A stretch of 64,000 nt of DNA. It comes from a bacterium. GTDB taxonomy: Bacteria; Patescibacteriota; Minisyncoccia; Phycocordibacterales; UBA9973. The notes under the pieces were generated by a model. The model saw nothing but the letters and a program-made list of their open reading frames with translations, searched no databases and was not told where the DNA came from. The position numbers and the translations under genes were made by a program. The DNA lies in assembly GCA_037130655.1 (NCBI GenBank), contig JBAXSP010000002.1:13125-77124 (forward strand). The letters run 5' to 3'. Positions 2,740 through 59,929 of the stretch are shown here, in pieces. Each line of letters starts with the position of its first letter. Position 1 is the first letter of the stretch.

Positions 2740-3345
2740 TTATTGTCTATTTCTGAGCGCATATTTGATCGTATCTGCATCAGAGTATTCGAGCTCCGTA
2801 CCAGTTGAAAGTCCTCGTCCAAGACTGACCAATTTGATGTCAGTACCTTCCAAATAATTTTTCAATGTATTTCTAATATATTCATCGGTATGTGTGCCTG
2901 ATGGAGTCAAAGAAAAAGCCAGAACAATTTCTTTCAATCCGTCTTTTTTCAAATCAACTACACGTTTGACCATTTCTCGTAGACGCAAAAATTCACTCGG
3001 ATTCTTTTCCAAAATCGGCACCAATCCACCGAGCACAAAATAAAAGCCGTTATATGTTTTGCTTTTTCGAAAGGCTTCGAGGTCTGCATCTTTTTCGACA
3101 ATCAATAGGGAAGTTGTATCTTCAGCCGTAGTACAAAACAGACAAATCTCTTGAGGACCAGAGAAAAATCGCTGACACAACGGACAAATTCGCACCCCGT
3201 CTTTCACATGAGTAATTGCATCAGAAAGTGAGTCCAAATACTGTTTGTCTTTGGTCAGCAAGAAATAAACAAAGCGTTTTGATTGACGTTCACCAATTCC
3301 AGGAAATTGTTTGAAATATTCAGCTAGTTTGTCGATAGGGTTCAT
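2740..3345 (-). CDS. recR: recombination protein RecR
   Basis: 201 aa with a C4 zinc finger (CPLCQRF...CLFC) and Toprim-like core typical of RecR. The start is preceded by tctGaTATACT and then 9 nt. Confidence 0.9.
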   Translation of the reverse strand: MNPIDKLAEYFKQFPGIGERQSKRFVYFLLTKDKQYLDSLSDAITHVKDGVRICPLCQRFFSGPQEICLFCTTAEDTTSLLIVEKDADLEAFRKSKTYNGFYFVLGGLVPILEKNPSEFLRLREMVKRVVDLKKDGLKEIVLAFSLTPSGTHTDEYIRNTLKNYLEGTDIKLVSLGRGLSTGTELEYSDADTIKYALRNRQ

Positions 3346-3460
3346 TGAAACTACAGTATATCAGATGATGTTATTTCAGAATATAGAAGCGCGCGACCCA
3401 AGGGTCGCGCGCTTTTACTTGGTCTATATTCTGATATACCAATTACTGAAATACCTTATA

Positions 3461-4876
3461 TTAAAAGTCCGACAAATCGTATTTGTTCGTAGCTGCTGGC
3501 CCTTGTGGAGCAGTAACGCCGGCATATTCATTGGCAACTTCAAGGAAGCTGGTAGTATTTCCATCAATCATCATAGACACTGCTCCAATCGGACCATTTC
3601 GGTGTTTTCCGATAATTACTTTGATTTCTCGAGAGCTATTGTTACCACCTGTTTCAAATTTGTCATCAACACGGTGCAAGAACATCACCACGTCAGCATC
3701 TTGCTCAATAGATCCAGAGTCACGAAGGTCAGAAAGCTTTGGTTCACCACCACGAGATTCAACGGCACGAGAAAGCTGTGACAATGCAATAACTGGCACA
3801 TCGAATTCTTTTGCAAGTGCTTTGAGTCCGCGAGAAATTTCGGTCACCTGGTTGACCATGTTGTCATAGGTTTTGACTGGAGTCATCAATTGCAAGTAGT
3901 CGATTACAATCAATCCGAGTCCGTGTTCTTTTTTGATACGTCGAGCAGTATTGCGAAGACGGATGATGTTACTTCCGGCTTGGTCATCGATGAAAATCGG
4001 CGCTTGTGCCAATTCTCCAACCGCTTGTTGCAACTTTTCATATTCTTCTTCTTTTTTAAAACCAATTCCAGTGCGAAGTTTCCACGCATCAACTTGTGAA
4101 TGAGAAGCGACCATTCTATCGATCAATTGATGAGAACTCATTTCGAGTGAGAAAATAATAGTCGGTTGACCGTGTTTGACCGCAGCATTTTTGGCAACAT
4201 CAAGTGCAAATGTTGTCTTACCGACAGATGGACGAGCGGCGAGAATAATCAAATCAGATTTTTGAAAACCAGAAAGCATGTCATCCAATTTTTTGAAACC
4301 ACTTGGTACTCCACGAAGTCCACCAGGATTTTGATGCAAACTTTCAAAACGTTCCATTGCTCCGGTCAACACTTCTTTGATTGGTACGGCACGAGTCGCG
4401 TTCGGACGCCCCTTCATATCAAGTAAGTGCTTTTCGGCTTGATCAACAATAGAATCTGCGTCTTCATCTGATTCTGCAAAACCAAGCTCGGCAATGTGAT
4501 CAGCTGCACGAATCAATTCACGAAGAATGTGTTTCTTCTGCACGATGTCTGCATAATATTTTGCATTCGTTGAAGAGGGAACAGAACTAGTCAATTCTGC
4601 CAAATAGGCATTTCCCCCAACACTATCAAACTGCTTTTTATCTTTGAGCTTCGTTGCAACAGAAAGCATGTCGATTGGTTCATTCTTCATCGACAAATCT
4701 CTCATTGCTTCAAAAATGATTCCATTTTTATCAGAATAAAATGTTTTCGGATCAAGAATGTCCGTAACTTCGTGAATTGCTCCAGAACGGACCATAATAG
4801 AACCGAGCACTGCGCGTTCTGCGTCAGCATCTTGTGGCGGTATTCGGATTTGCGGATTTCCTTTGTGTTGTGACAT
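3461..4876 (-). CDS. dnaB: replicative DNA helicase DnaB
   Basis: 471 aa; Walker A (ARPSVGKTTFALDVAKNAA), IIDYLQLM and the RecA-like C-terminal domain. No intein. Confidence 0.9.
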   Translation of the reverse strand: MSQHKGNPQIRIPPQDADAERAVLGSIMVRSGAIHEVTDILDPKTFYSDKNGIIFEAMRDLSMKNEPIDMLSVATKLKDKKQFDSVGGNAYLAELTSSVPSSTNAKYYADIVQKKHILRELIRAADHIAELGFAESDEDADSIVDQAEKHLLDMKGRPNATRAVPIKEVLTGAMERFESLHQNPGGLRGVPSGFKKLDDMLSGFQKSDLIILAARPSVGKTTFALDVAKNAAVKHGQPTIIFSLEMSSHQLIDRMVASHSQVDAWKLRTGIGFKKEEEYEKLQQAVGELAQAPIFIDDQAGSNIIRLRNTARRIKKEHGLGLIVIDYLQLMTPVKTYDNMVNQVTEISRGLKALAKEFDVPVIALSQLSRAVESRGGEPKLSDLRDSGSIEQDADVVMFLHRVDDKFETGGNNSSREIKVIIGKHRNGPIGAVSMMIDGNTTSFLEVANEYAGVTAPQGPAATNKYDLSDF

Positions 4877-25743: not shown

Positions 25744-25801
25744 GTATCCGTGTATTATATCATAAAAAATAATGACCAATTACTAATGACCAGTGACTAA
25801 T

Positions 25802-25838
25802 AAAAAAATGGAACCCGCTGGGTTCCATTTTTTTATTT
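25802..25838. terminator. bidirectional terminator flanked by TAGTCA-type inverted repeats
   Basis: aaaaaaatggaaccc-gctg-ggttccattttttt. The flanks taatgaccaattactaatgaccagtgactaat and ggtaactagtcattagtcactagtcatta are CTAG/TAG-rich. Confidence 0.7.
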
Positions 25839-25870
25839 TGTATTTATTATTGGTAACTAGTCATTAGTCA

Positions 25871-26617: not shown

Positions 26618-28351
26618 ATGCAACACATTACCCACTTCCGCCAAGGTCTATTGTTGACCTTATTATTTGTATTTCTTTTCGGAAACGAAAAGATCTTAGC
26701 CCAACAAAAGCATTATCCACTCACCGTGGTTGATACTTTTGATTTGTACAAAAAGTACATCAAAAATGACTCTTTCGCCTCTTTTAGTGCTAATGCACTG
26801 ATAGAACAGAGTACGTATTCTCATTTAGTTTTTTATGGTAAAAACCGTGATTTATATTTTTATAAATACGGACCAACACTTACTACTATTGATTCAATAG
26901 CATTTGAATCACCAACCAATCAATCGACACAAAACACTTTTATTTCAAACAACACTGGTTGTATTGTAATGAATTACCGTGGTGTTTATCAGTATGCAAA
27001 GGATGGAAAAGTGACGTGGAAAATTGAAACGGTTGGTGAAAGTTTTTTTCAATCAATCGTACAAGTAACTAATGGGTACATTCTCTGTGGAGGTATTGTA
27101 CAAAATGATAGTTTGTTTAACACACTTTCTTTTATCAATATCGATGGAAGCATCAAATGGCAACGGAATTTTTATAGCTTGCAAAATAGCTATGTATCAA
27201 TTTGCCAGGCATTAGCATATTGCAATAAGCACATATACTTCATGTATGCTGATTCAAATCAAATACGTGCAGATATTAGTGGTAACGGATTAGTCCCTTC
27301 TGCCAAAGTTGTAAAAATTGATTTAGATGGAAACAGTATTACCGAAACAACAGTAGCTGTATCGCCGAGAAGTTTTGTTATCAAAAACAATCAGCCGTTT
27401 TTATTTGGAGATGTTGTTGATGGAACAGGTCAATCACTCTATCGAGTGTATAAAATCGACACCACAACACTTACTGCAACACTGTATTTCAACAATGCAA
27501 CAAATGGATTATTACCTTATGGTGATAAATGGCTTTCGGTCAGCAGTAAAAATGTTCGAAGTGCTGACAAATTGCACAAAGAATTTATTACTTCCATTAG
27601 TGTGTTTGATATCATCGACACAGAAAGCATCAAAACTTCGTATGTTCAGCATTACACCAATGTATTCGATACACTGACTCAAGTAAGTTCAGATATAAAC
27701 AATCTGCAACTAGATGGAGATAACAATATCTTACTTACTTTTACCGTGAATCGAAAGTTTACCAACGGATCAGGATTGTTGTTATACAAAATTGTTTTAA
27801 GAAAAGATACGTTGCCAAATGTTGACTCTCTTTGGGCAACACAAACAACGGTAGCAAAACAAGAAGTAACGATTAGTTGTCAAACACTATTCAAACGAAC
27901 ACTACTTGTTACTGTTTGGAAAAAAGACAATTCTTCAACAATCAAAACATATGTTGATACGAACATTGCAACCAATCATGCTATCAGAAGTTTTTTCTCA
28001 GAACCAGGTGAATATGTATATACTGCGTATGCTATAGGCGGTCCGTACAAAGACACGATTACTTCAAATGAACATTCATTCACTGTTGATGCAGGAACCA
28101 ACGGAATCACACAAACAAACAACGATCAATTGATCAGTGTGTTTCCGAATCCATCGAATGGTAGTGTTGTTTTTGAAATAACTATTCCAGGAAATCTGAC
28201 GGTGTACACACTGGAAGGCAAAATGGTTTTGAATAAAAATATTCAAACCACTACCCCATTGGATATTTCAGTATTCGGTACTGGCATGTATGTATATAAG
28301 TTCTCGACAGATAAAAGCACTCTGACTGGAAAAATCATTGTTCAGCAATAA
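26618..28351 (+). CDS. secreted repeat protein with T9SS-type C-terminal sorting domain (Por_Secre_tail-like)
   Basis: Signal peptide. The last ~70 aa, VFPNPSNGSVVFEITIPGNLTVYTLEGKMVLNKNI...ISVFGTGMYVYKFSTDK...GKIIVQQ, match the PNP...G-l-vyd..G+.v...GvY.v+ pattern of the TIGR04183 CTD. Confidence 0.6.
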   Translation: MQHITHFRQGLLLTLLFVFLFGNEKILAQQKHYPLTVVDTFDLYKKYIKNDSFASFSANALIEQSTYSHLVFYGKNRDLYFYKYGPTLTTIDSIAFESPTNQSTQNTFISNNTGCIVMNYRGVYQYAKDGKVTWKIETVGESFFQSIVQVTNGYILCGGIVQNDSLFNTLSFINIDGSIKWQRNFYSLQNSYVSICQALAYCNKHIYFMYADSNQIRADISGNGLVPSAKVVKIDLDGNSITETTVAVSPRSFVIKNNQPFLFGDVVDGTGQSLYRVYKIDTTTLTATLYFNNATNGLLPYGDKWLSVSSKNVRSADKLHKEFITSISVFDIIDTESIKTSYVQHYTNVFDTLTQVSSDINNLQLDGDNNILLTFTVNRKFTNGSGLLLYKIVLRKDTLPNVDSLWATQTTVAKQEVTISCQTLFKRTLLVTVWKKDNSSTIKTYVDTNIATNHAIRSFFSEPGEYVYTAYAIGGPYKDTITSNEHSFTVDAGTNGITQTNNDQLISVFPNPSNGSVVFEITIPGNLTVYTLEGKMVLNKNIQTTTPLDISVFGTGMYVYKFSTDKSTLTGKIIVQQ

Positions 28352-28453
28352 TTTTTCCAACATCCAGTCACAAAGCCTCGTATAATGCGAGGCTTTTTTC
28401 TATGGTAATAAAATATGATACAAAACGTCTTATTTATGGAAGGAATAATATAT

Positions 28454-28481
28454 TGACATTATATTAATAATATGATATAAT
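28454..28481 (+). promoter_or_regulatory. sigma70-type promoter: TTGACA, 17-nt spacer, TGaTATAAT
   Basis: tatTTGACAttatattaataatatgaTATAATaca. A rare full -35/-10 pair here; it drives the conserved leader. Confidence 0.65.
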
Positions 28482-28488
28482 ACAATTA

Positions 28489-28556
28489 GTAAAGTTCTTT
28501 GATTTAGTTAGGTGTACAGAGCGGATCTTGGTCCTTTGTGTCCACCTAATTAAATA
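28489..28556 (+). ncRNA. conserved 5' leader element, copy 1 (candidate cis-regulatory RNA)
   Basis: agttctttgatttagttaggtgtacagagcggatcttggtcctttgtgtccacctaatt, about 80% identical to the leader at 33293-33385 (minus). Outer stem aggtg/cacct versus atgtg/cacat shows a compensatory change. Confidence 0.5.
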
Positions 28557-28559
28557 CAA

Positions 28560-28886
28560 ATGAAAAAAATATATTCAATCCTTATCTGTCTTGTTGCTTT
28601 GTCGAGTCAATCTTGTAAAAAAGAAATTTCTCAAAGCTATAAAGATAGTTTACCGAAAATAATATCTATAGAAAAACCTGAAGGACATTTTACTTATAGA
28701 TATAAGATGAAAGGTCAAGATACAAATTCGAAAGATCCTAAAACAGGAACTGTCTATAGAAGTTACGGAATTGCATTAGTTTTTTCCAACAATGTTTACA
28801 AAGTTGGAAGAATTATATCTGACGAACCCCTGGATCGATCAGATAGTACCAGCGTTATCGACTTTGTAACAGAAGTTGATAAATAA
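28560..28886 (+). CDS. lipoprotein, hypothetical
   Basis: MKKIYSILICLVALSSQSC lipobox; 108 aa. Confidence 0.6.
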   Translation: MKKIYSILICLVALSSQSCKKEISQSYKDSLPKIISIEKPEGHFTYRYKMKGQDTNSKDPKTGTVYRSYGIALVFSNNVYKVGRIISDEPLDRSDSTSVIDFVTEVDK

Positions 28887-28892
28887 AAAAAT

Positions 28893-28927
28893 AAAAGCTC
28901 TGCATTTTTGCAGAGCTTTCTTTTTTA
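28893..28927. terminator. bidirectional terminator
   Basis: aaaagctctgca-tttt-tgcagagctttcttttt. Confidence 0.7.
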
Positions 28928-30622
28928 AGACCCATGAACCATATCGTGTTTTTCTAACACAATGTGCGATGACATATATTCTTTCGTCGTACCAACTTTC
29001 TTGTTCGGATTGAAAATGTTTTCCGGATCAAACAATTCTTTTGTTTGCTTGAACAGATTCAAAATCTCAGGAGAAAAGATCTTTCCAAGATACGGCGTAC
29101 GAACAAGTCCGTCATTGTGTTCGGCGGTAATTGTTCCATTGAACTCTCGGACCAAATCATAGACTTTTTCAGATAACTCCATAATCACCTCTTTAGTGTG
29201 GGTATCAGTGAAATCCATCAGTGGAATGATATGGAAGTTGCCATTACCTGCGTGTCCGGCAATCGTGTAGACCAACTTGTATTCTGCAAGTAACGCATTG
29301 AGTCTTGGCAAAAATACAGGAAGAAATTCTGGCTTGATACACACATCATCAATAAATGGCGCCGTGTGCTTGCCTTTGACATGTTTACGGAGCATATTGA
29401 AACTTTCTCGTCGCATCCGCCAATACTTTTCTCCATCAGCTTTTGATTTGGTCACCCGTGTTTTGAAACCAAATGATGCAATTTGCTTTTGTGCATTTCT
29501 TGTTGCTCGCTCAACTTCATCTAGATTATTACCAGTAAATTCTGCAATCATGACGAGTTTTGGTACACCGCCAGTTGCCATCATAAACACTTCAGGAATG
29601 AACGAAATTCCCATTTTGATAAATTGCCACAAACTCATTCGCTTCAAGAAATCAGGCATGAACTTCACTGCCAATTTCAAACTATAATCATCGTAACTTT
29701 CGATACTTTCTGGACCAAGCGGAAGAATCGTATCAACCAAATGTCCCAATCGAGAAAGGTCATTCATAAACACAACAAGAAGTCGTGATTCTTTGGTCAC
29801 ATCAGTCAGGTTGAATGTAATCTCTGTAACAATTCCGAGTGTCCCTTGTGAGCCCACAATCAATCTACACAAATCAAAACTTTCGGTTTCTTTATCATAA
29901 ATATTCCACAAATAATAACCGGCAGAATTTTTTGATACTTGCGGTTTTGCAGAAGTTATCAACATGTCGTTATCATTAATCAGTTGCAACAGTTCTTTGT
30001 AGAGTTCTGCTTCGACACTAACCTCTGCGACTTTTTGATAGAGTTCTTTCTTCGTCATTCGTTTGACGGTGTATTCATAGCCATCACGAAAGACGACTTT
30101 CAATTCACGAATCCAGTCTTCAGTCTTGCCAAATTTGATAGACTTTTCTCCACCACTATTGTTCCCTACCATTCCACCAACCGCGCACAATTCCTTTGAT
30201 GCGGTATATGATGGCAAGATCAAATTTTCAGCCAATGTAACTTTTTCAAAATCTCGGTAGAATGTTCCCGGAAGTACAGTCGCATAACCTGTCACTTTGT
30301 GACCATACGACATTTCATCAGTCTTTGTAATCTTCCCAATACCGTTCATATAACGAGACATATCAAGAATGATTGATTCATTGATCGAACCACCTGACAT
30401 ACAAGTTCCTGCACAACGTGGAGTGATTGAGAGAGTCGGATCTTCTTTCTTGTGTTCATTGACCCATTTGACCAACAAACAAACATCAGTGGAATCTTTT
30501 GGAAATACAATCACCTTTGGACGAACTACGAATATACTCGCATCACGAGAATATTTCTCCAATGCTTCGTCACTCATTTCTACATCCCCTCTTATTATGT
30601 TCTTTAAATCGTCGAAATTCAT
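28925..30622 (-). CDS. FAD-linked oxidoreductase (GlcD / D-lactate dehydrogenase family)
   Basis: FAD-binding PCMH domain (CAGTCMSGGS, GGNNSGGEKS) and a FAD-oxidase C-terminal domain. Leaderless: TATACT-ttatat-ATG. Confidence 0.8.
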   Translation of the reverse strand: MNFDDLKNIIRGDVEMSDEALEKYSRDASIFVVRPKVIVFPKDSTDVCLLVKWVNEHKKEDPTLSITPRCAGTCMSGGSINESIILDMSRYMNGIGKITKTDEMSYGHKVTGYATVLPGTFYRDFEKVTLAENLILPSYTASKELCAVGGMVGNNSGGEKSIKFGKTEDWIRELKVVFRDGYEYTVKRMTKKELYQKVAEVSVEAELYKELLQLINDNDMLITSAKPQVSKNSAGYYLWNIYDKETESFDLCRLIVGSQGTLGIVTEITFNLTDVTKESRLLVVFMNDLSRLGHLVDTILPLGPESIESYDDYSLKLAVKFMPDFLKRMSLWQFIKMGISFIPEVFMMATGGVPKLVMIAEFTGNNLDEVERATRNAQKQIASFGFKTRVTKSKADGEKYWRMRRESFNMLRKHVKGKHTAPFIDDVCIKPEFLPVFLPRLNALLAEYKLVYTIAGHAGNGNFHIIPLMDFTDTHTKEVIMELSEKVYDLVREFNGTITAEHNDGLVRTPYLGKIFSPEILNLFKQTKELFDPENIFNPNKKVGTTKEYMSSHIVLEKHDMVHGS

Positions 30623-30750
30623 ATATAAAGTATATCAGAGTATAGATATTCAGAGTATAGACAAAACTATTCGCATATTCGCGCGAATTAGGAAATAAAA
30701 AAAACACAAAAAAAACCCGCACAATGTACGGATTTTCCGTTAGTCGTGCG
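30623..30750 (-). promoter_or_regulatory. upstream module copy A: terminator, ATTCGC-ATTCGCGCGAAT operator-like palindrome, tandem TATACT boxes
   Basis: About 110 nt shared with 32797-32962. Palindrome at 30669-30688; two ctatactctga repeats immediately before the ATG. Confidence 0.55.
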
Positions 30751-30759
30751 GGCTATAAT

Positions 30760-31116
30760 TTATTTCTCTTGTTTTGTATTATTTAAATCTTCTGCGCTAC
30801 AGTCAGCATTCAAGAAAAAGTTATCTCCTTTTTGTAAACAGTTATATTGCTTAGAGGTTACATATACATCTTCAGTACGATTTTTGCCTCCAAATAAGCC
30901 TTCTATGGTTATTACCCAATCTTCATTGTCGGTAACAATATAAGGTTTTAATACCATTGATTTACCACAAGGGATTGTCATAAACATGATGTAATTTCTT
31001 GTTGGTTCATAATGTTTTGAAACTACTTTTCCTTCTTTAAGTTGATTACAACCTGTTGATATAAAAAGTACTAACAAAACAAACAGAGAAATAGCAAAGT
31101 TAATTATTTTTTTCAT
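30760..31116 (-). CDS. lipoprotein, hypothetical
   Basis: MKKIINFAISLFVLLVLFISTGC lipobox. Start set at the internal Met. Preceded by a TTGACA-N17-TATAAT promoter and a 14-bp 5'UTR hairpin. Confidence 0.55.
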   Translation of the reverse strand: MKKIINFAISLFVLLVLFISTGCNQLKEGKVVSKHYEPTRNYIMFMTIPCGKSMVLKPYIVTDNEDWVITIEGLFGGKNRTEDVYVTSKQYNCLQKGDNFFLNADCSAEDLNNTKQEK

Positions 31117-31327
31117 TTTTAGAGTTGGTTTAAGAGAAAAGACCTTATCTACTCTCTTAAACCAACTAGTCAAAATGAATCCTGAAAAGAACTATTATAG
31201 TTATATTATAGCATATAATATAAGTATTTGTCAATAGATATAAAAAGAGGCGGAAAAGCTTTGCTTTTCCGCCTCTTTTTATGTTCTAGCTAGAGCCTAG
31301 ATGCCTAGCACCTATTAGTCTAATTAA

Positions 31328-31932: not shown

Positions 31933-32796
31933 TTAGAGATTATTGAATAGTTTCAATCGTGCTTCAACTACTTTCTCTATAGCATCAACGGCTGGTTGCA
32001 GAATTTTTGCAGGAGTGATTTCTTCCGGATTTTCTTCCATGAATTTGTCTGTAGCTTCTTTGAAAGCTAAACGGATTTCACTATTGATATGAACAATAGA
32101 AATTCCTGCTTGTATTGCATTAGTAAAATCTTCATCACGAAGCCCTGAACCTCCGTGCAGTACGAGTGGTACACCGGTCACACTCTTAATCTCTGCAACA
32201 AGTTCCGCATCAATATGCGGTTTACCAGACTTGATGAGCCCGTGAATACTACCGACAGATGGAGCGAATAAATCGATACCAGTCATATCAACAAAGTTTT
32301 TTGCATCTTCAGGTTTTGTCAGTACTCCAGCGCCTTCAGGGATACTATCTCGAACAATTGAACCTGAACCGATAAAACCAAGTTCTGCTTCAACCAAAAT
32401 ATCTCTACCGGTTTGACTAGAAACTTCACGTGCATAATCGACACATTGTTTGGTAAGTGCAACATTTTCTTCAAACGGCAATTTTGCAACATCAATAATG
32501 ACCATATCAAATCCTGCATCAATACATTTTTTGACTGATTCGAAACTACCATGATGATCAGCATTTAAGAATATTGGATAATTATCACGGTCACGTATTG
32601 CGTGTACCAATGCAACAACTTCTTCAAGCCCAGCAAATTTTTCTTCACCTTCTGAAACTCCAATAATAACTGGTAAATTGAGCTTCTTTGCTGCGTTGTA
32701 AATACCATGCAATGCTTCTAAATTTGAAATATTAAAATGCCCAATGGCAACCTTGTTTTCCTCTGCTTCTTTGATGTATGTGCGTAGTGTCTTCAT
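31933..32796 (-). CDS. fba: fructose-bisphosphate aldolase, class II
   Basis: HFNISNLEALHGIYNAAKKLNLPVIIGVSEGE, DHHGSFE and LHGGSG motifs of the class II FBA/TBP aldolase family. Start at MKTLRTY (32796), 8 nt after TATACT. Confidence 0.85.
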   Translation of the reverse strand: MKTLRTYIKEAEENKVAIGHFNISNLEALHGIYNAAKKLNLPVIIGVSEGEEKFAGLEEVVALVHAIRDRDNYPIFLNADHHGSFESVKKCIDAGFDMVIIDVAKLPFEENVALTKQCVDYAREVSSQTGRDILVEAELGFIGSGSIVRDSIPEGAGVLTKPEDAKNFVDMTGIDLFAPSVGSIHGLIKSGKPHIDAELVAEIKSVTGVPLVLHGGSGLRDEDFTNAIQAGISIVHINSEIRLAFKEATDKFMEENPEEITPAKILQPAVDAIEKVVEARLKLFNNL

Positions 32797-32962
32797 ATAA
32801 GATAAGTATATCAGAGTATAGATATTCAGAATATAGAAAAACAGGACAGCTTTTACTTGTCCCATTTAAAACTATTCGCCTATTCGCGCGAATTAGGCAA
32901 TAGCGAAATCAAAAAGAAAAAAACCCGCACACTGTGTACGGGGTTTTTTCCGTGCACATTGT
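32797..32962 (-). promoter_or_regulatory. upstream module copy B (terminator, ATTCGCGCGAAT palindrome, tandem -10 boxes)
   Basis: Palindrome at 32874-32893, ctatactctga/ctatattctga repeats, and a terminator hairpin cccgcacactgtgtacgggg serving the upstream gene. Confidence 0.55.
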
Positions 32963-32971
32963 GCGAGTTTG

Positions 32972-33292
32972 TTATTTTATAAGACCACAATTGTAATCAA
33001 TATAAAATTTTGCTCCTCTTCTGTAAAAGATTTTAAACAGACTGTCTTGGAGATCCATTGACCAAGGCACCAGTTTTTTCATATTGAGGAATACATACAA
33101 AATAGTAGCACCTACAGTAATGAGAAAACCGGCAAGATTTACGTATGGATTATCGGAATCTCGCATCATGTCAATTCCTATTATTAAAAATGGAAAGTCC
33201 ATTAATATAATAAGAAGTTTGGCAATGACGCATCCGAGACCTCCCATAGTCTGTTTTTTGGAGTAGAGTTTGTTGAATAATCTTCTTTTCAT
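32972..33292 (-). CDS. small membrane protein, hypothetical
   Basis: 106 aa, 2-3 TM. Preceded by copy 2 of the conserved leader. Confidence 0.5.
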   Translation of the reverse strand: MKRRLFNKLYSKKQTMGGLGCVIAKLLIILMDFPFLIIGIDMMRDSDNPYVNLAGFLITVGATILYVFLNMKKLVPWSMDLQDSLFKIFYRRGAKFYIDYNCGLIK

Positions 33293-33385
33293 TTTGGTAT
33301 TTAATTAATTAATTATGTGGACACAAAGGACATAATCCACTCTGTTCACATAACTAAATAACAATGTATTAATGAACTCTACCTA
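33293..33385 (-). ncRNA. conserved 5' leader element, copy 2
   Basis: Minus-strand leader gtagagttcattaatacattgttatttagttatgtgaacagagtggattatgtcctttgtgtccacataattaattaattaa-ATG, with a TTGACA-N18-TGgTATACT promoter upstream. Confidence 0.5.
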
Positions 33386-33481
33386 TATAAGTATACCATA
33401 CTATATGAATATTTGTCAATAGACTGAATTTTTATCACTTTCCCCTACATTATAAGAATAGTACTCTGATATACTTATTTC

Positions 33482-34486
33482 ATGAACTTATTTGGAAATA
33501 AATCCTATGACATTGTATGTATCGGAGACATTGTGACCGATGCTTTTATTAGACTTAAAGATGCGAATGTGCACTGCAAGATTGATCAAACTGCTTGTGA
33601 GCTTTGTGTACGTTTTGGTGACAAAGTACCATTCGAGTCTTCGACTATCGTGCGAGCTGTCGGTAACAGCGCAAATGCTGCCGTCTCAGCTTCACGACTT
33701 GGACTTTCTACTGGATTGATGAGCGTTGTTGGAAATGATGAGGAAGGGAAAAAATGCCTAGAAACATTGAAAGAAAATAATGTTGGAACAGCGTATATGG
33801 AAACTGATCCAAAACTACCGACCAATTATCACTATGTACTTTGGTACGATGTTGAACGAACAATCTTAGTTAATCACTCGCCTTTTGAACGACATATTCC
33901 AAAAAACTTCAAAGCACCAAAATGGATTTATCTGACATCACTCGGAGAAAACACTGAGGCATTTCATCACGAAATAACTGCCTGGCTCAAAGCACATCCA
34001 GAAACAAAATTGGTTTTCCAGCCTGGAACATTCCAAATGAAATTAGGAAAAGAACATTTGGCTGATATATATAAAATGAGCGAACTATTCTTTTGTAATG
34101 TCGAAGAAGCACAAAGAATTCTTGGTACACAAGAGGCTGATAAAAAAACGTTGATGAATATGTTGGCAGGACTTGGACCAAAGATTGTCGTGATGACTGA
34201 TGGGATCAATGGTGCGTACGCACGAGACACAGACGGAACATGTTACTTTATGCCGGTGTATCCACATGATCCATACGAACGTACTGGCGCAGGAGACGCA
34301 TTTGCTTCAACTGTCGTGTCAGCACTCGCACTTGGGAAAGATTTGAAAACTGCGCTCACTTGGGGCCCAATCAATTCAATGTCAGTCGTACAAAAAATTG
34401 GCGCACAAGCCGGATTGCTCCCAAGAAAAGAACTTGAAGATTACTTGAGCAAAGCTCCAGAAGATTACAAATTGAAAACTATATAA
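33482..34486 (+). CDS. carbohydrate kinase, PfkB/ribokinase family
   Basis: N-terminal IVCIGDIVTDAF and C-terminal ERTGAGDAFAST (anion hole). Leaderless: TGaTATACT-tatttc-ATG. Confidence 0.8.
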   Translation: MNLFGNKSYDIVCIGDIVTDAFIRLKDANVHCKIDQTACELCVRFGDKVPFESSTIVRAVGNSANAAVSASRLGLSTGLMSVVGNDEEGKKCLETLKENNVGTAYMETDPKLPTNYHYVLWYDVERTILVNHSPFERHIPKNFKAPKWIYLTSLGENTEAFHHEITAWLKAHPETKLVFQPGTFQMKLGKEHLADIYKMSELFFCNVEEAQRILGTQEADKKTLMNMLAGLGPKIVVMTDGINGAYARDTDGTCYFMPVYPHDPYERTGAGDAFASTVVSALALGKDLKTALTWGPINSMSVVQKIGAQAGLLPRKELEDYLSKAPEDYKLKTI

Positions 34487-59846: not shown

Positions 59847-59859
59847 ATGCTGTATGATA

Positions 59860-59929
59860 GCGCAAAAATATAAAGAGCGGAAATTCCCTAGGGAATTTCC
59901 GCTCTTTATATTTTTGCGCTTACGCGCGT
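59860..59929. terminator. 70-nt perfect palindrome centred on CCCTAGGG (bidirectional terminator-like)
   Basis: gcgcaaaaatataaagagcggaaattcc-ctag-ggaatttccgctctttatatttttgcgc between csp and the EVE gene. Confidence 0.7.

What the first reader, a model, noticed from the sequence alone, without database searches (positions are those of the whole stretch)
28454..28559. Conserved ~70-nt 5' leader with a covarying stem, shared by two unrelated small envelope-protein genes
The leaders of the lipoprotein gene at 28560 and the membrane-protein gene at 33292 (minus strand) are about 80% identical from transcription start to ATG: agttc(t/a)tt...atttagtta(g/t)gtg(t/a)acagag(c/t)gga...tcctttgtgtccac(c/a)taatta. 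The outer stem changes from aggtg/cacct to atgtg/cacat, which is a compensatory base-pair change. Each copy is driven by one of the few full TTGACA-N17/18-TATAAT promoters in the window. The two downstream proteins are not homologous, so what is conserved is the RNA or DNA element itself. That fits a riboswitch, RNA thermometer or protein-binding leader, in a genome that otherwise has almost no 5' UTRs.
Basis: seen in the sequence. Interest (0 to 1): 0.7.

Follow-up and report, generated by a model that had tools for sequence, protein, structure and literature searches.

The report
Structured leader heading swappable envelope genes
A small uncultured (CPR/Patescibacteria) bacterium whose genes mostly lack 5' leaders puts the same strong promoter plus a hairpin-forming leader in front of several unrelated, fast-changing small envelope-protein genes; the element is real and previously undescribed, but it occurs in only one species-level group and its function is inferred, not shown.

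Summary
Leaders A (28488-28559, +) and B (33383-33293, -) are 81% identical from the -35 box to the ATG, and 91% identical in the core. Both fold into a 23-position imperfect hairpin.

A covariance model found a third, diverged copy C (hairpin 31167-31123, -) before another lipoprotein gene. It found four more copies in three close relatives. RNAalifold predicts the same helix independently: 6 of 23 pairs show compensatory changes, and no shuffle out of 500 reached that number.

Nothing in Rfam matches. There are no copies in GTDB representative genomes, JGI metagenomes, IMG/VR, phages or plasmids, nor in relatives with 80% or lower FAD-oxidase identity.

The genome is otherwise leaderless and lacks Shine-Dalgarno (SD) motifs. 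The open reading frames (ORFs) behind the leader are unrelated near-orphans. At one locus, three strains carry three different ORFs, with junctions 14 nt into the coding sequence and at a shared terminator.

Best reading: a portable promoter-plus-leader module whose RNA hairpin acts in cis on mRNA stability or translation. A riboswitch is unlikely. The mechanism is inferred. Interest is moderate.

The parts
28453..28481 (+). Promoter of unit A: TTGACA-17 nt-TATAAT with TG extended -10
   Evidence: 12 of 12 consensus positions; sequence
28493..28500 (+). Conserved 5' box AGTTCTTT of leader A, 11 nt after the -10 hexamer (about +5 to +12 of the predicted mRNA)
   Evidence: The spacing is 11 nt in A, B, C, D and E1 and 12 nt in E2. 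The transcription start is inferred, not mapped.
28504..28553 (+). Hairpin A: 23 stem positions (20 pairs plus three 1x1 mismatches), loop CUUG at 28527-28530
28560..28886 (+). Gene A: 108-aa lipoprotein-like ORF (NCBI WCO58_01180), a near-orphan
   Evidence: Its orthologue in L021 is only 51% identical.
28894..28919 (.). Bidirectional terminator that closes unit A
   Evidence: The stretch from after the 28372-28396 terminator through this terminator is absent in relative L013.
33390..33419 (-). Promoter of unit B: TTGACA-18 nt-TATACT
   Evidence: 11 of 12
33371..33378 (-). 5' box AGTTCATT of leader B, 11 nt after the -10 hexamer
33309..33357 (-). Hairpin B, loop UAU at 33334-33332
32972..33292 (-). 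Gene B: 106-aa ORF with two predicted membrane helices. NCBI annotates only the last 65 aa (WCO58_01205).
32924..32942 (-). Terminator of unit B, homologous to the terminators of units C and D
31205..31234 (-). Promoter of unit C: TTGACA-18 nt-TATAAT
   Evidence: 12 of 12
31186..31193 (-). 5' box AGTTCTTT of leader C, 11 nt after the -10 hexamer
31123..31167 (-). Hairpin C: a diverged copy in which 16 pairs, a U.U mismatch and 4 further pairs keep the helix through five compensatory changes
   Evidence: 28.8 bits, E 2e-4 with the two-sequence model; dG -24.8, z -6.6; 80.8 bits
30760..31116 (-). Gene C: 118-aa lipoprotein-like ORF (MKKIINF...STGC). It is replaced by unrelated ORFs at the same locus in relatives.
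30710..30738 (-). Terminator of unit C, homologous to that of unit B

Best explanation
This is a lineage-specific family of portable expression modules in a Patescibacteria (CPR) species group.

Each module has, in order:
- a near-consensus extended -10 sigma-70-type promoter;
- a conserved box AGUUC(U/A)UU near the mRNA 5' end;
- a 21-23-bp stem-loop;
- a short A-rich spacer;
- AUG-AAA.

The module heads small lipoprotein, membrane or secreted-protein genes. These genes are unrelated to each other and are gained, lost or replaced between strains. Nearly all other genes of the genome are transcribed without a leader.

Shown here:
- the family exists;
- the helix is maintained by compensatory substitutions and is better on the sense strand;
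- the stem is more conserved between strains than neutral sites;
- the ORFs behind it are swapped precisely.

Inferred: the hairpin works as RNA, in cis. It would be a 5'-UTR stability or processing and translation-setting element. One version is a roadblock to 5'-3' decay by RNase J. Another is a two-turn double-stranded substrate for RNase III. Either would give whatever ORF follows a defined, high expression level. It does not sense a metabolite.

A by-product is also inferred: the conserved leader and the conserved terminator serve as homology arms for ORF exchange.
For: Family and structure:
- Model R1, built from A and B only, finds C at 28.8 bits against a next-best 18 bits.
- It finds D in L013 at 70.5 bits.
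- Model R2 finds E1 and E2 in L021 (97.4 and 84.4 bits) and F in L022 (97 bits).
- On 7 sequences, 87% of cells pair, against 35-47% when the partners are slid.
- 6 of 23 pairs have changes on both sides (0 of 500 shuffles). Pair 39-74 occurs as A-U, G-C and U-A.
- RNAalifold predicts the same 20 pairs on its own.

RNA rather than a DNA operator:
- A, B and C coexist in one genome with different stem sequences but the same pairing.
- A U.G closing pair is kept in 6 of 7 copies, and G.U pairs are kept.
- The sense strand folds better than the antisense strand in 4 of 4 copies.
- The position between promoter and ATG is fixed.

Selection: the stems of A and its orthologue E2 are identical at 42 of 46 positions. 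The 4-fold degenerate sites of the adjacent FAD oxidase gene are 67% identical (P about 1e-4).

Context:
- The genome is leaderless and SD-less.
- CPR genomes retain RNase J, RNase III and PNPase (PMC12641178).

Module behaviour:
- Unit A is absent in L013 and L023.
- Three different ORFs (C, D, E1) sit at one locus.
- Homology between L013 and L021 ends 14 nt into the coding sequence and resumes at the terminator.
- Units B, C and D share a homologous terminator.
Against: - There is no transcript data. The start site, the existence of the leader RNA and any processing are all inferred.
- About 16-30 predicted unpaired nucleotides precede the hairpin. Classical 5' stabilisers sit within a few nucleotides of the 5' end (own knowledge).
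- Only 7 sequences are available, about 5 of them independent, all from one narrow clade. Most double changes come from copy C alone.
- Conversion between copies, or template-switch correction of a quasi-palindrome, could mimic both conservation and covariation.
- The RNase genes of this genome were not seen; none lies in the 64-kb window.
- The function of the AGUUCUUU box is unexplained.
Confidence: 0.5

Rival explanations
1. The element is mainly a DNA recombination device. The conserved leader, possibly extruded as a single-stranded or cruciform hairpin, together with the shared terminator, is the site at which a recombinase or the homologous-recombination machinery exchanges envelope-gene cassettes. 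This would resemble the 72-nt 5'-UTR recombination sites of the Mycoplasma vpma/vsp loci, or integron attC hairpins.
For: - ORF replacement is precise between the leader plus 5 codons and the terminator.
- Three unrelated ORFs occupy one locus.
- Unit A is present or absent between strains.
- Copies lie in inverted orientation 2.6-4.8 kb apart.
- In M. agalactiae, recombination sites lie at -1 to -72 of every vpma gene (PMC2268961).
Against: - No recombinase, integrase or transposase lies in the 64-kb window.
- No inversion between leader copies is seen in any relative; gene order and orientation are collinear.
- Every copy has its own promoter, so an exchange would not switch expression.
- The hairpin lies in the middle of the unit A insertion, not at its junction.
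- The D/E1 junction lies after the ATG, not in the hairpin.
- The order of GTTRRRY-like and RYYYAAC-like boxes is the reverse of attC, and these boxes are not kept in B or C.
Confidence: 0.15
2. The leader is a sensing element. It could be an RNA thermometer, or less likely a riboswitch. Its extended, mismatch-containing, AU-rich lower stem would occlude the SD-less initiation region and open on a signal.
For: - The hairpin is imperfect, with G.U pairs and 1x1 mismatches.
- Minimum-free-energy folds of all four full leaders place the AUG in a helix with an upstream U-rich segment.
- The hairpin ends only 7-17 nt before the AUG.
Against: - AUG pairing is no better than in composition-matched shuffles (p=0.33, 0.30, 0.03 and 0.74; combined 0.14).
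- Two of the three internal loops are closed in copy C, and the loop sequence is free, so no conserved ligand pocket exists.
- There are no Rfam hits, including ROSE, FourU and known riboswitches.
- The regulated genes share no pathway.
- The distribution is confined to one clade.
Confidence: 0.1
3. The hairpin has no function of its own. The promoter-leader region was recently copied with the units (promoter reuse), and the palindrome is kept by template-switch 'correction' or by gene conversion rather than by selection.
For: - This genome reuses other regulatory modules too: terminator-plus-promoter blocks before FAD oxidase and FBA, and a shared TACTCTGATATACTT promoter core.
- The A/B pair meets the definition of a putative mobile promoter (PMC3488235).
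- Copy C is a more perfect palindrome, as template switching would produce.
Against: - Compensatory changes occur at two adjacent outer-stem pairs in four different combinations even without copy C.
- G.U pairs and the Y.Y mismatch persist instead of being corrected.
- The loop diverges while the stems do not.
- Stem conservation exceeds that of 4-fold sites.
- The helix is kept in every one of the 7 copies.
Confidence: 0.12
4. The inverted repeat is a DNA operator for a dimeric repressor that blocks transcription downstream of the strong promoters.
For: The element is an imperfect palindrome with GTGNACA/TGTNCAC half-sites, placed just downstream of the promoters of a possibly co-regulated gene set.
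Against: - Copy C in the same genome has different half-site sequences but keeps the complementarity.
- Outer-stem positions covary among copies.
- As duplex DNA the palindrome is poorer because of the G.U positions.
- A 23-bp arm with a 3-4-nt spacer is unusual for an operator (own knowledge).
Confidence: 0.05

Closest known systems
Putative mobile promoters (promoter reuse; Matus-Garcia, Nijveen & van Passel 2012, PMC3488235)
   Same: Upstream regions of 50-100 nt and at least 80% identity sit before non-homologous genes in one genome. Most such families have no Rfam or IS match.
   Different: Here the reused piece includes a transcribed leader with a covarying hairpin. It comes with a matching terminator. 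The ORFs behind it are replaced between strains.
Conserved 5' UTRs of the Mycoplasma vpma/vsp variable surface lipoprotein genes (PMC2268961)
   Same: A conserved 5' UTR of about 70 nt is shared by different surface lipoprotein genes, in both orientations, in a reduced-genome bacterium with a host-associated lifestyle.
   Different: The Mycoplasma loci have one promoter, silent copies, a conserved signal peptide, an adjacent Xer-type recombinase and frequent inversions. Here every copy has its own promoter, similarity stops after about 5 codons, no recombinase lies in 64 kb and no inversions are seen.
5' UTR stabiliser or processing hairpins (E. coli ompA 5' UTR, B. subtilis aprE leader, phage SP82 RNase III-processed stabiliser; own knowledge)
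   Same: A stable stem-loop sits in the leader of highly expressed envelope or secreted-protein mRNAs. It is transferable to other ORFs. Its length, about two helical turns, suits RNase III.
   Different: The hairpin is not at the extreme predicted 5' end, there is no sequence similarity, and the function is untested.
RNA thermometers (ROSE RF00435, FourU RF01795)
   Same: An imperfect hairpin with mismatches and G.U pairs lies close to the start codon.
   Different: There is no SD sequence to sequester. Rfam gives no match. AUG occlusion is not significant. The downstream genes are not heat-shock or virulence genes.
Integron attC sites
   Same: An imperfect palindrome whose structure is conserved more than its sequence, associated with exchangeable ORFs.
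   Different: This element lies 5' of the ORF behind a promoter, the box order is wrong, no integrase is present and the insertion junctions are not in the hairpin.

Membership tests
Any Rfam 15 family | Covariance-model score at or above the family's gathering threshold | tested here: not met
   The whole window at gathering thresholds gives only two tRNAs. Permissive scans around A and B give only noise: at most 18 bits against thresholds of 47-89, and those hits are snoRNA or miRNA models.
Riboswitch (generic) | Conserved unpaired ligand-binding core (internal loops or junction invariant across members) | tested here: not met
   Two of the three 1x1 internal loops become A-U and G-C pairs in copy C. 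The loop is CUUG, UAU, GUU, GCU, UUAU or AAG in different copies.
Riboswitch (generic) | Expression platform (terminator or initiation-region sequestor that alternates with the aptamer) | tested here: inconclusive
   No U-tract terminator follows the hairpin. AUG pairing is predicted but is not above shuffles.
Riboswitch (generic) | Association with functionally coherent genes across a broad phylogenetic range | tested here: not met
   The downstream ORFs are unrelated near-orphans. There are no copies in GTDB representatives, JGI metagenomes or IMG/VR, nor in relatives at 62-80% FAD-oxidase identity.
RNA thermometer | Temperature-labile helix that occludes the ribosome-binding region | not testable with these tools
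   Only predictions are available. The hairpin ends 7-17 nt before the AUG, and sequestration by the 5' segment gives a combined p of 0.14.
Putative mobile promoter (PMC3488235) | A 50-100-nt upstream region, at least 80% identical, before non-homologous coding sequences in the same genome | tested here: met
   A and B are 81% identical from the -35 box to the ATG and 91% in the core. The proteins are unrelated.
Mycoplasma vpma/vsp-type phase-variable lipoprotein locus | Conserved 5' UTR shared by the variable genes | tested here: met
Mycoplasma vpma/vsp-type phase-variable lipoprotein locus | A single promoter with silent copies, and a conserved signal-peptide coding region | tested here: not met
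   Each copy has its own 11-12/12 promoter. Similarity ends about 14 nt into the coding sequence.
Mycoplasma vpma/vsp-type phase-variable lipoprotein locus | An adjacent tyrosine recombinase, and inversions between the 5' UTR sites | tested here: not met
   No recombinase was found among the Pfam-scanned ORFs of at least 100 aa in the window, plus the Logan gene calls for 23-39 kb. Gene order is collinear in all relatives. The rest of the genome was not available.
Integron attC | RYYYAAC ... GTTRRRY box order, location 3' of promoterless cassettes, crossover in the R' box, and an IntI nearby | tested here: not met
   The boxes read GTTAGGT ... ACCTAAT, which is the reverse order, and they are not kept in B or C. 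The element lies after a promoter and before the ORF. The junctions are outside the hairpin. No integrase is present.
RNase III substrate / 5' stabiliser hairpin | About 20 bp or more of double-stranded RNA in the 5' UTR | tested here: met
   The helices span 21-23 positions, with dG -18 to -25 kcal/mol.
RNase III substrate / 5' stabiliser hairpin | Cleavage by RNase III, or protection of the mRNA from 5' decay | not testable with these tools
   This needs transcript 5'-end mapping or an in vitro assay. That CPR retain rnc and rnj is taken from the literature only.
REP/BIME or MITE-type dispersed palindromes | Many copies scattered in intergenic regions irrespective of gene starts | tested here: not met
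   There are only three copies in 64 kb, all between a promoter and an ATG on the sense strand.

The most novel reading that the evidence does not exclude
The leader hairpin and the shared terminator would define a previously unknown, integrase-independent gene-cassette system for surface variation in CPR bacteria. The hairpin would serve twice. As RNA it would gate expression: in an organism whose ribosomes are tuned to leaderless mRNAs, processing at the hairpin would be needed to make these mRNAs translatable. As DNA it would be the hotspot at which envelope-protein ORFs are shuffled between loci and strains.
Probability: 0.1. Interest if true: 0.8.

Novelty: new variant of a known kind. 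Interest (0 to 1): 0.5.

Why it matters
Almost nothing is known about cis-regulatory RNA or gene-expression signals in CPR/Patescibacteria. No curated RNA family matches this element.

A structured leader is an outlier in a genome that otherwise dispenses with leaders and Shine-Dalgarno sites. It may show how such cells handle the few mRNAs that need special treatment.

The leader also marks loci where small envelope proteins are replaced between strains whose housekeeping proteins are 96-97% identical. Envelope proteins are the likely interface with the host cell. The covariance model could therefore serve as a probe for strain-variable surface genes in this lineage.

If the module confers context-independent expression, it would also be a natural 'insulated' expression part.

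Tried and rejected
- **Rfam.** Gathering and permissive scans gave nothing beyond tRNAs.
- **Exact-pattern scans.** ACAGAGNGGAN{4,6}TCCTTTGTGT gave 4 hits in GTDB species representatives and 6 in JGI metagenomes. All lack the flanking stem, so they are chance hits. A related pattern in IMG/VR gave 0 hits.
- **BLAST against phages and plasmids.** It matched only the AT-rich promoter part.
- **Homologues of proteins A and B for comparative leaders.** The word-indexed search returned only self hits. An exhaustive HMMER search found 9 weak relatives of A, whose loci could not be fetched.
- **Extending beyond the window.** Exact-protein look-ups gave only short Logan contigs. The other roughly 95 kb of the 158.9-kb source contig could not be searched.
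- **Start-codon sequestration by the conserved 5' box.** It was not significant.
- **A leader peptide.** A GTG-initiated 13-codon frame in A is destroyed by the 1-nt loop difference in B (read directly).
- **Intrinsic terminator or attenuator.** There is no U-tract, and the scan does not call one.
- **Rejected for the reasons given in the membership table:** attC, REP/MITE, a dimeric-repressor operator, and CsrA-type GGA-in-loop sites (the GGA is in the stem, is AGA in copy C, and the loops vary).
- **A pyrimidine-motif triplex** between the 5' box and the purine-rich arm: the polarity and sequence do not fit.

Full report

Yes. The sequence before ATG 28560 (+ strand) and the sequence before ATG 33292 (- strand) align from just upstream of the -35 box to the start codon. 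Column identity is 81%. In the 58-column core it is 91%.

Each leader folds into one long imperfect hairpin:
- dG is -20.0 and -18.1 kcal/mol for 51 nt, with z-scores of -4.8 and -4.5.
- There are three 1x1 mismatches and several G.U pairs.
- The loop is 3-4 nt.

The difference AGGUG/CACCU versus AUGUG/CACAU is a genuine G-C to U-A exchange.

The promoter scan lists three best matches in the 24-38 kb stretch scanned: TTGACA-17-TATAAT for A, TTGACA-18-TATACT for B, and a third at 31234-31205. The core pattern is not expected by chance (0.00 in shuffles).

**2. More members**

A covariance model built from A and B alone (R1) was run over the window with filters off. It found a third copy C at 31172-31116 (-), scoring 28.8 bits with E 2e-4. 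The next unrelated hit scored 18 bits and is a terminator.

C lies behind the third consensus promoter and before a 118-aa lipoprotein-like ORF. Its stem sequence differs at many positions but pairs even better (dG -24.8, z -6.6).

I fetched relatives through homologues of the neighbouring FAD oxidase and through 90%-identity clusters of L25 and transketolase. This gave four more copies:
- D, in L013;
- E1 and E2, in L021;
- F, in L022.

All four come from strains whose FAD oxidase is 95.6-97.3% identical to the window's.

Relatives at 62-80% FAD-oxidase identity keep the same gene backbone. They have neither the leaders nor the small genes (about 85 kb searched).

Exact-pattern scans of the GTDB representatives, the JGI metagenomes and IMG/VR gave only chance matches or none. 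Rfam 15 has nothing.

**3. Structure**

On the MAFFT alignment of seven leaders (A6):
- 87% of cells in the 23-position helix form standard pairs, against 35-47% when the 3' partners are slid by 1-3 columns.
- Six pairs have changes on both sides (0 of 500 shuffles).
- One pair occurs as A-U, G-C and U-A.
- The U.G pair closing the loop is kept in 6 of 7 copies.
- A pyrimidine-pyrimidine mismatch below the apical 4-bp stem is kept in 7 of 7 copies.

RNAalifold predicts the same 20 pairs without being told the structure.

Two observations matter for interpretation. First, two of the three 1x1 mismatches of A, B and D are closed to A-U and G-C in C, and the loop sequence is free. This argues against a ligand pocket or loop-specific recognition. 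Second, copies with different stem sequences coexist in one genome. This argues against a sequence-specific dimeric DNA-binding protein and for a nucleic-acid fold.

The sense strand folds better than the antisense strand in all four copies tested. This is weak support for RNA.

**4. Conservation beyond neutrality**

A and E2 are positional orthologues. Their genes encode 51%-identical proteins. Their stems are identical at 42 of 46 positions. The 4-fold degenerate sites of the adjacent FAD oxidase gene are 67% identical between the same two genomes, and the range is 53-82% for two other genes (binomial P about 1e-4). Conversion between leader copies cannot be excluded as a contributor.

**5. 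Context**

The organism is an uncultured Patescibacteria/CPR bacterium. Its NCBI record is a MAG labelled 'bacterium', with locus tags WCO58_ and a 158.9-kb contig.

Only 1 of 67 ORFs has an SD-like motif. Most first genes have a TATAAT- or TATACT-type box ending 6-9 nt before the ATG, so transcripts are mostly leaderless. Leaders of 72-91 nt are therefore exceptional here.

A further conserved feature is the box AGTTC(T/A)TT. It lies 11 nt after the -10 hexamer (12 nt in E2), at about +5 to +12 of the predicted RNA. Its role is unexplained.

**6. The units are cassettes**

Each unit consists of promoter, leader, small ORF and terminator.

- Unit A is missing in L013 and L023. There the terminator of the Por_Secre_tail gene directly abuts the FAD oxidase stop codon. 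L021 has unit A's orthologue but lacks the Por_Secre_tail gene.
- At the locus between a conserved 168-172-aa secreted protein and FAD oxidase, three unrelated ORFs follow the leader:
  - a 118-aa lipoprotein (window);
  - a 231-aa secreted protein (L013, L022);
  - a 185-aa polytopic membrane protein (L021).
- Between L013 and L021, 96% nucleotide identity runs through the leader to 14 nt past the ATG. It then stops and resumes at the terminator.
- The terminators of units B, C and D are homologous. So are the downstream promoters of FBA and FAD oxidase, which include a perfect ATTCGCGCGAAT palindrome.
- Proteins A, B and C have no Pfam match and no mutual similarity.
- Protein A has only nine weak relatives among 1.84 billion representatives.
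- No recombinase, integrase or transposase is encoded among the Pfam-scanned ORFs of at least 100 aa, plus the Logan gene calls for 23-39 kb.
- No inversion between the oppositely oriented copies is seen in any relative.

**7. Mechanism**

What is shown is a family of promoter-plus-structured-leader modules. The helix is under constraint, and the modules head exchangeable envelope-protein genes.

What I infer is that the hairpin acts as RNA, in cis, on mRNA fate. A helix of about two turns behind a very strong promoter fits two roles:
- a decay roadblock or processing site, since CPR genomes generally retain RNase J, RNase III and PNPase (PMC12641178);
- an insulator that keeps the A-rich, SD-less initiation region free whatever ORF follows.

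I put about 0.5 on this class of explanation.

Start-codon sequestration, which would point to a thermometer-like gate, is predicted in every minimum-free-energy fold. It is not better than in composition-matched shuffles.

Rivals:
- a recombination site or homology arm, like the Mycoplasma vpma sites (PMC2268961): 0.15;
- a sensing element (thermometer or riboswitch): 0.1;
- neutral promoter reuse plus templated palindrome correction: 0.12;
- a DNA operator: 0.05.

**8. Comparison with known systems and novelty**

The A/B pair meets the published operational definition of a putative mobile promoter (PMC3488235).

The closest biological parallel is the conserved 5' UTR of Mycoplasma variable lipoprotein genes. 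That system's defining features are a single promoter, silent copies, a conserved signal peptide, an adjacent recombinase and inversions. None of them is met here.

The element is not a member of any Rfam family. I rate it a new variant of a known kind: a structured leader on a reused promoter module. It is restricted to one species-level clade. Interest is moderate at 0.5. The structure is solid and the cassette behaviour is intriguing for CPR surface biology. The function is unproven and the distribution is narrow.

Noticed in passing
whole window (for example 33462-33481 before pfkB, 30623-30642 before FAD oxidase): The genome is essentially leaderless and SD-less. Most first genes have a TATAAT- or TATACT-type box ending 6-9 nt before the ATG. 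Only 1 of 67 ORFs has an SD-like motif.
   Followed up: partly
window 30610-30775 and 32785-32990 (- strand); L013 1415-1580: Homologous blocks of about 130 nt, made of terminator plus promoter, precede FAD oxidase and FBA. Each contains the perfect 12-bp palindrome ATTCGCGCGAAT (30677-30688, 32882-32893) followed by GGCGAATAG. This may be a transcription-factor site shared by the two genes.
   Followed up: partly
window 30629-30662, 32805-32838, 33462-33489, 3345-3465: The promoter core TCTATAYTCTGAATATCTATACTCTGATATACTT recurs before FAD oxidase and FBA. Its last part also lies before pfkB, and the core recurs in a divergent promoter pair near 3.4 kb. Regulatory modules are reused widely in this genome (D3, D6, I3, I11).
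   Followed up: no
window 32972-33292 (-): NCBI annotates gene B as 65 aa (WCO58_01205). The ATG that aligns with the start codons behind the other leaders gives a 106-aa protein with an extra N-terminal membrane helix.
   Followed up: partly
window 26618-28351 (+); L013 3305-5059: The Por_Secre_tail (T9SS-type sorting domain) protein is only 35.6% identical to its positional counterpart in a strain whose neighbouring FAD oxidase is 95.6% identical. It is absent from L021. This is another fast-evolving surface gene at the same hotspot.
   Followed up: partly
window 59859-59920: A perfect 31+31-nt palindrome lies between the GTPase gene and the EVE-domain gene. It overlaps the latter's promoter and is probably a bidirectional terminator (I2).
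   Followed up: no
window 25770-25866 and 2708-2738: Repeats of the type TAATGACCA/TGGTCATTA lie upstream of the SLT-domain gene and near recR. The two sites are 94% complementary to each other, which suggests a shared binding site (I1, I4).
   Followed up: no
L022 219-1355 and 3235-3597: A close relative carries a Phage_integrase gene with several small ORFs, and a bAvd/23S_rRNA_IVP-type gene, next to rpiB and rpe. Neither gene has a counterpart in the window (one search compared).
   Followed up: no
window 28493-28500, 33371-33378, 31186-31193: The conserved box AGTTC(T/A)TT resembles the 3' arm of the hairpin (GUCCUUU). In folds of partial transcripts it pairs with the 5' arm, so a transient alternative helix is possible.
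   Followed up: partly
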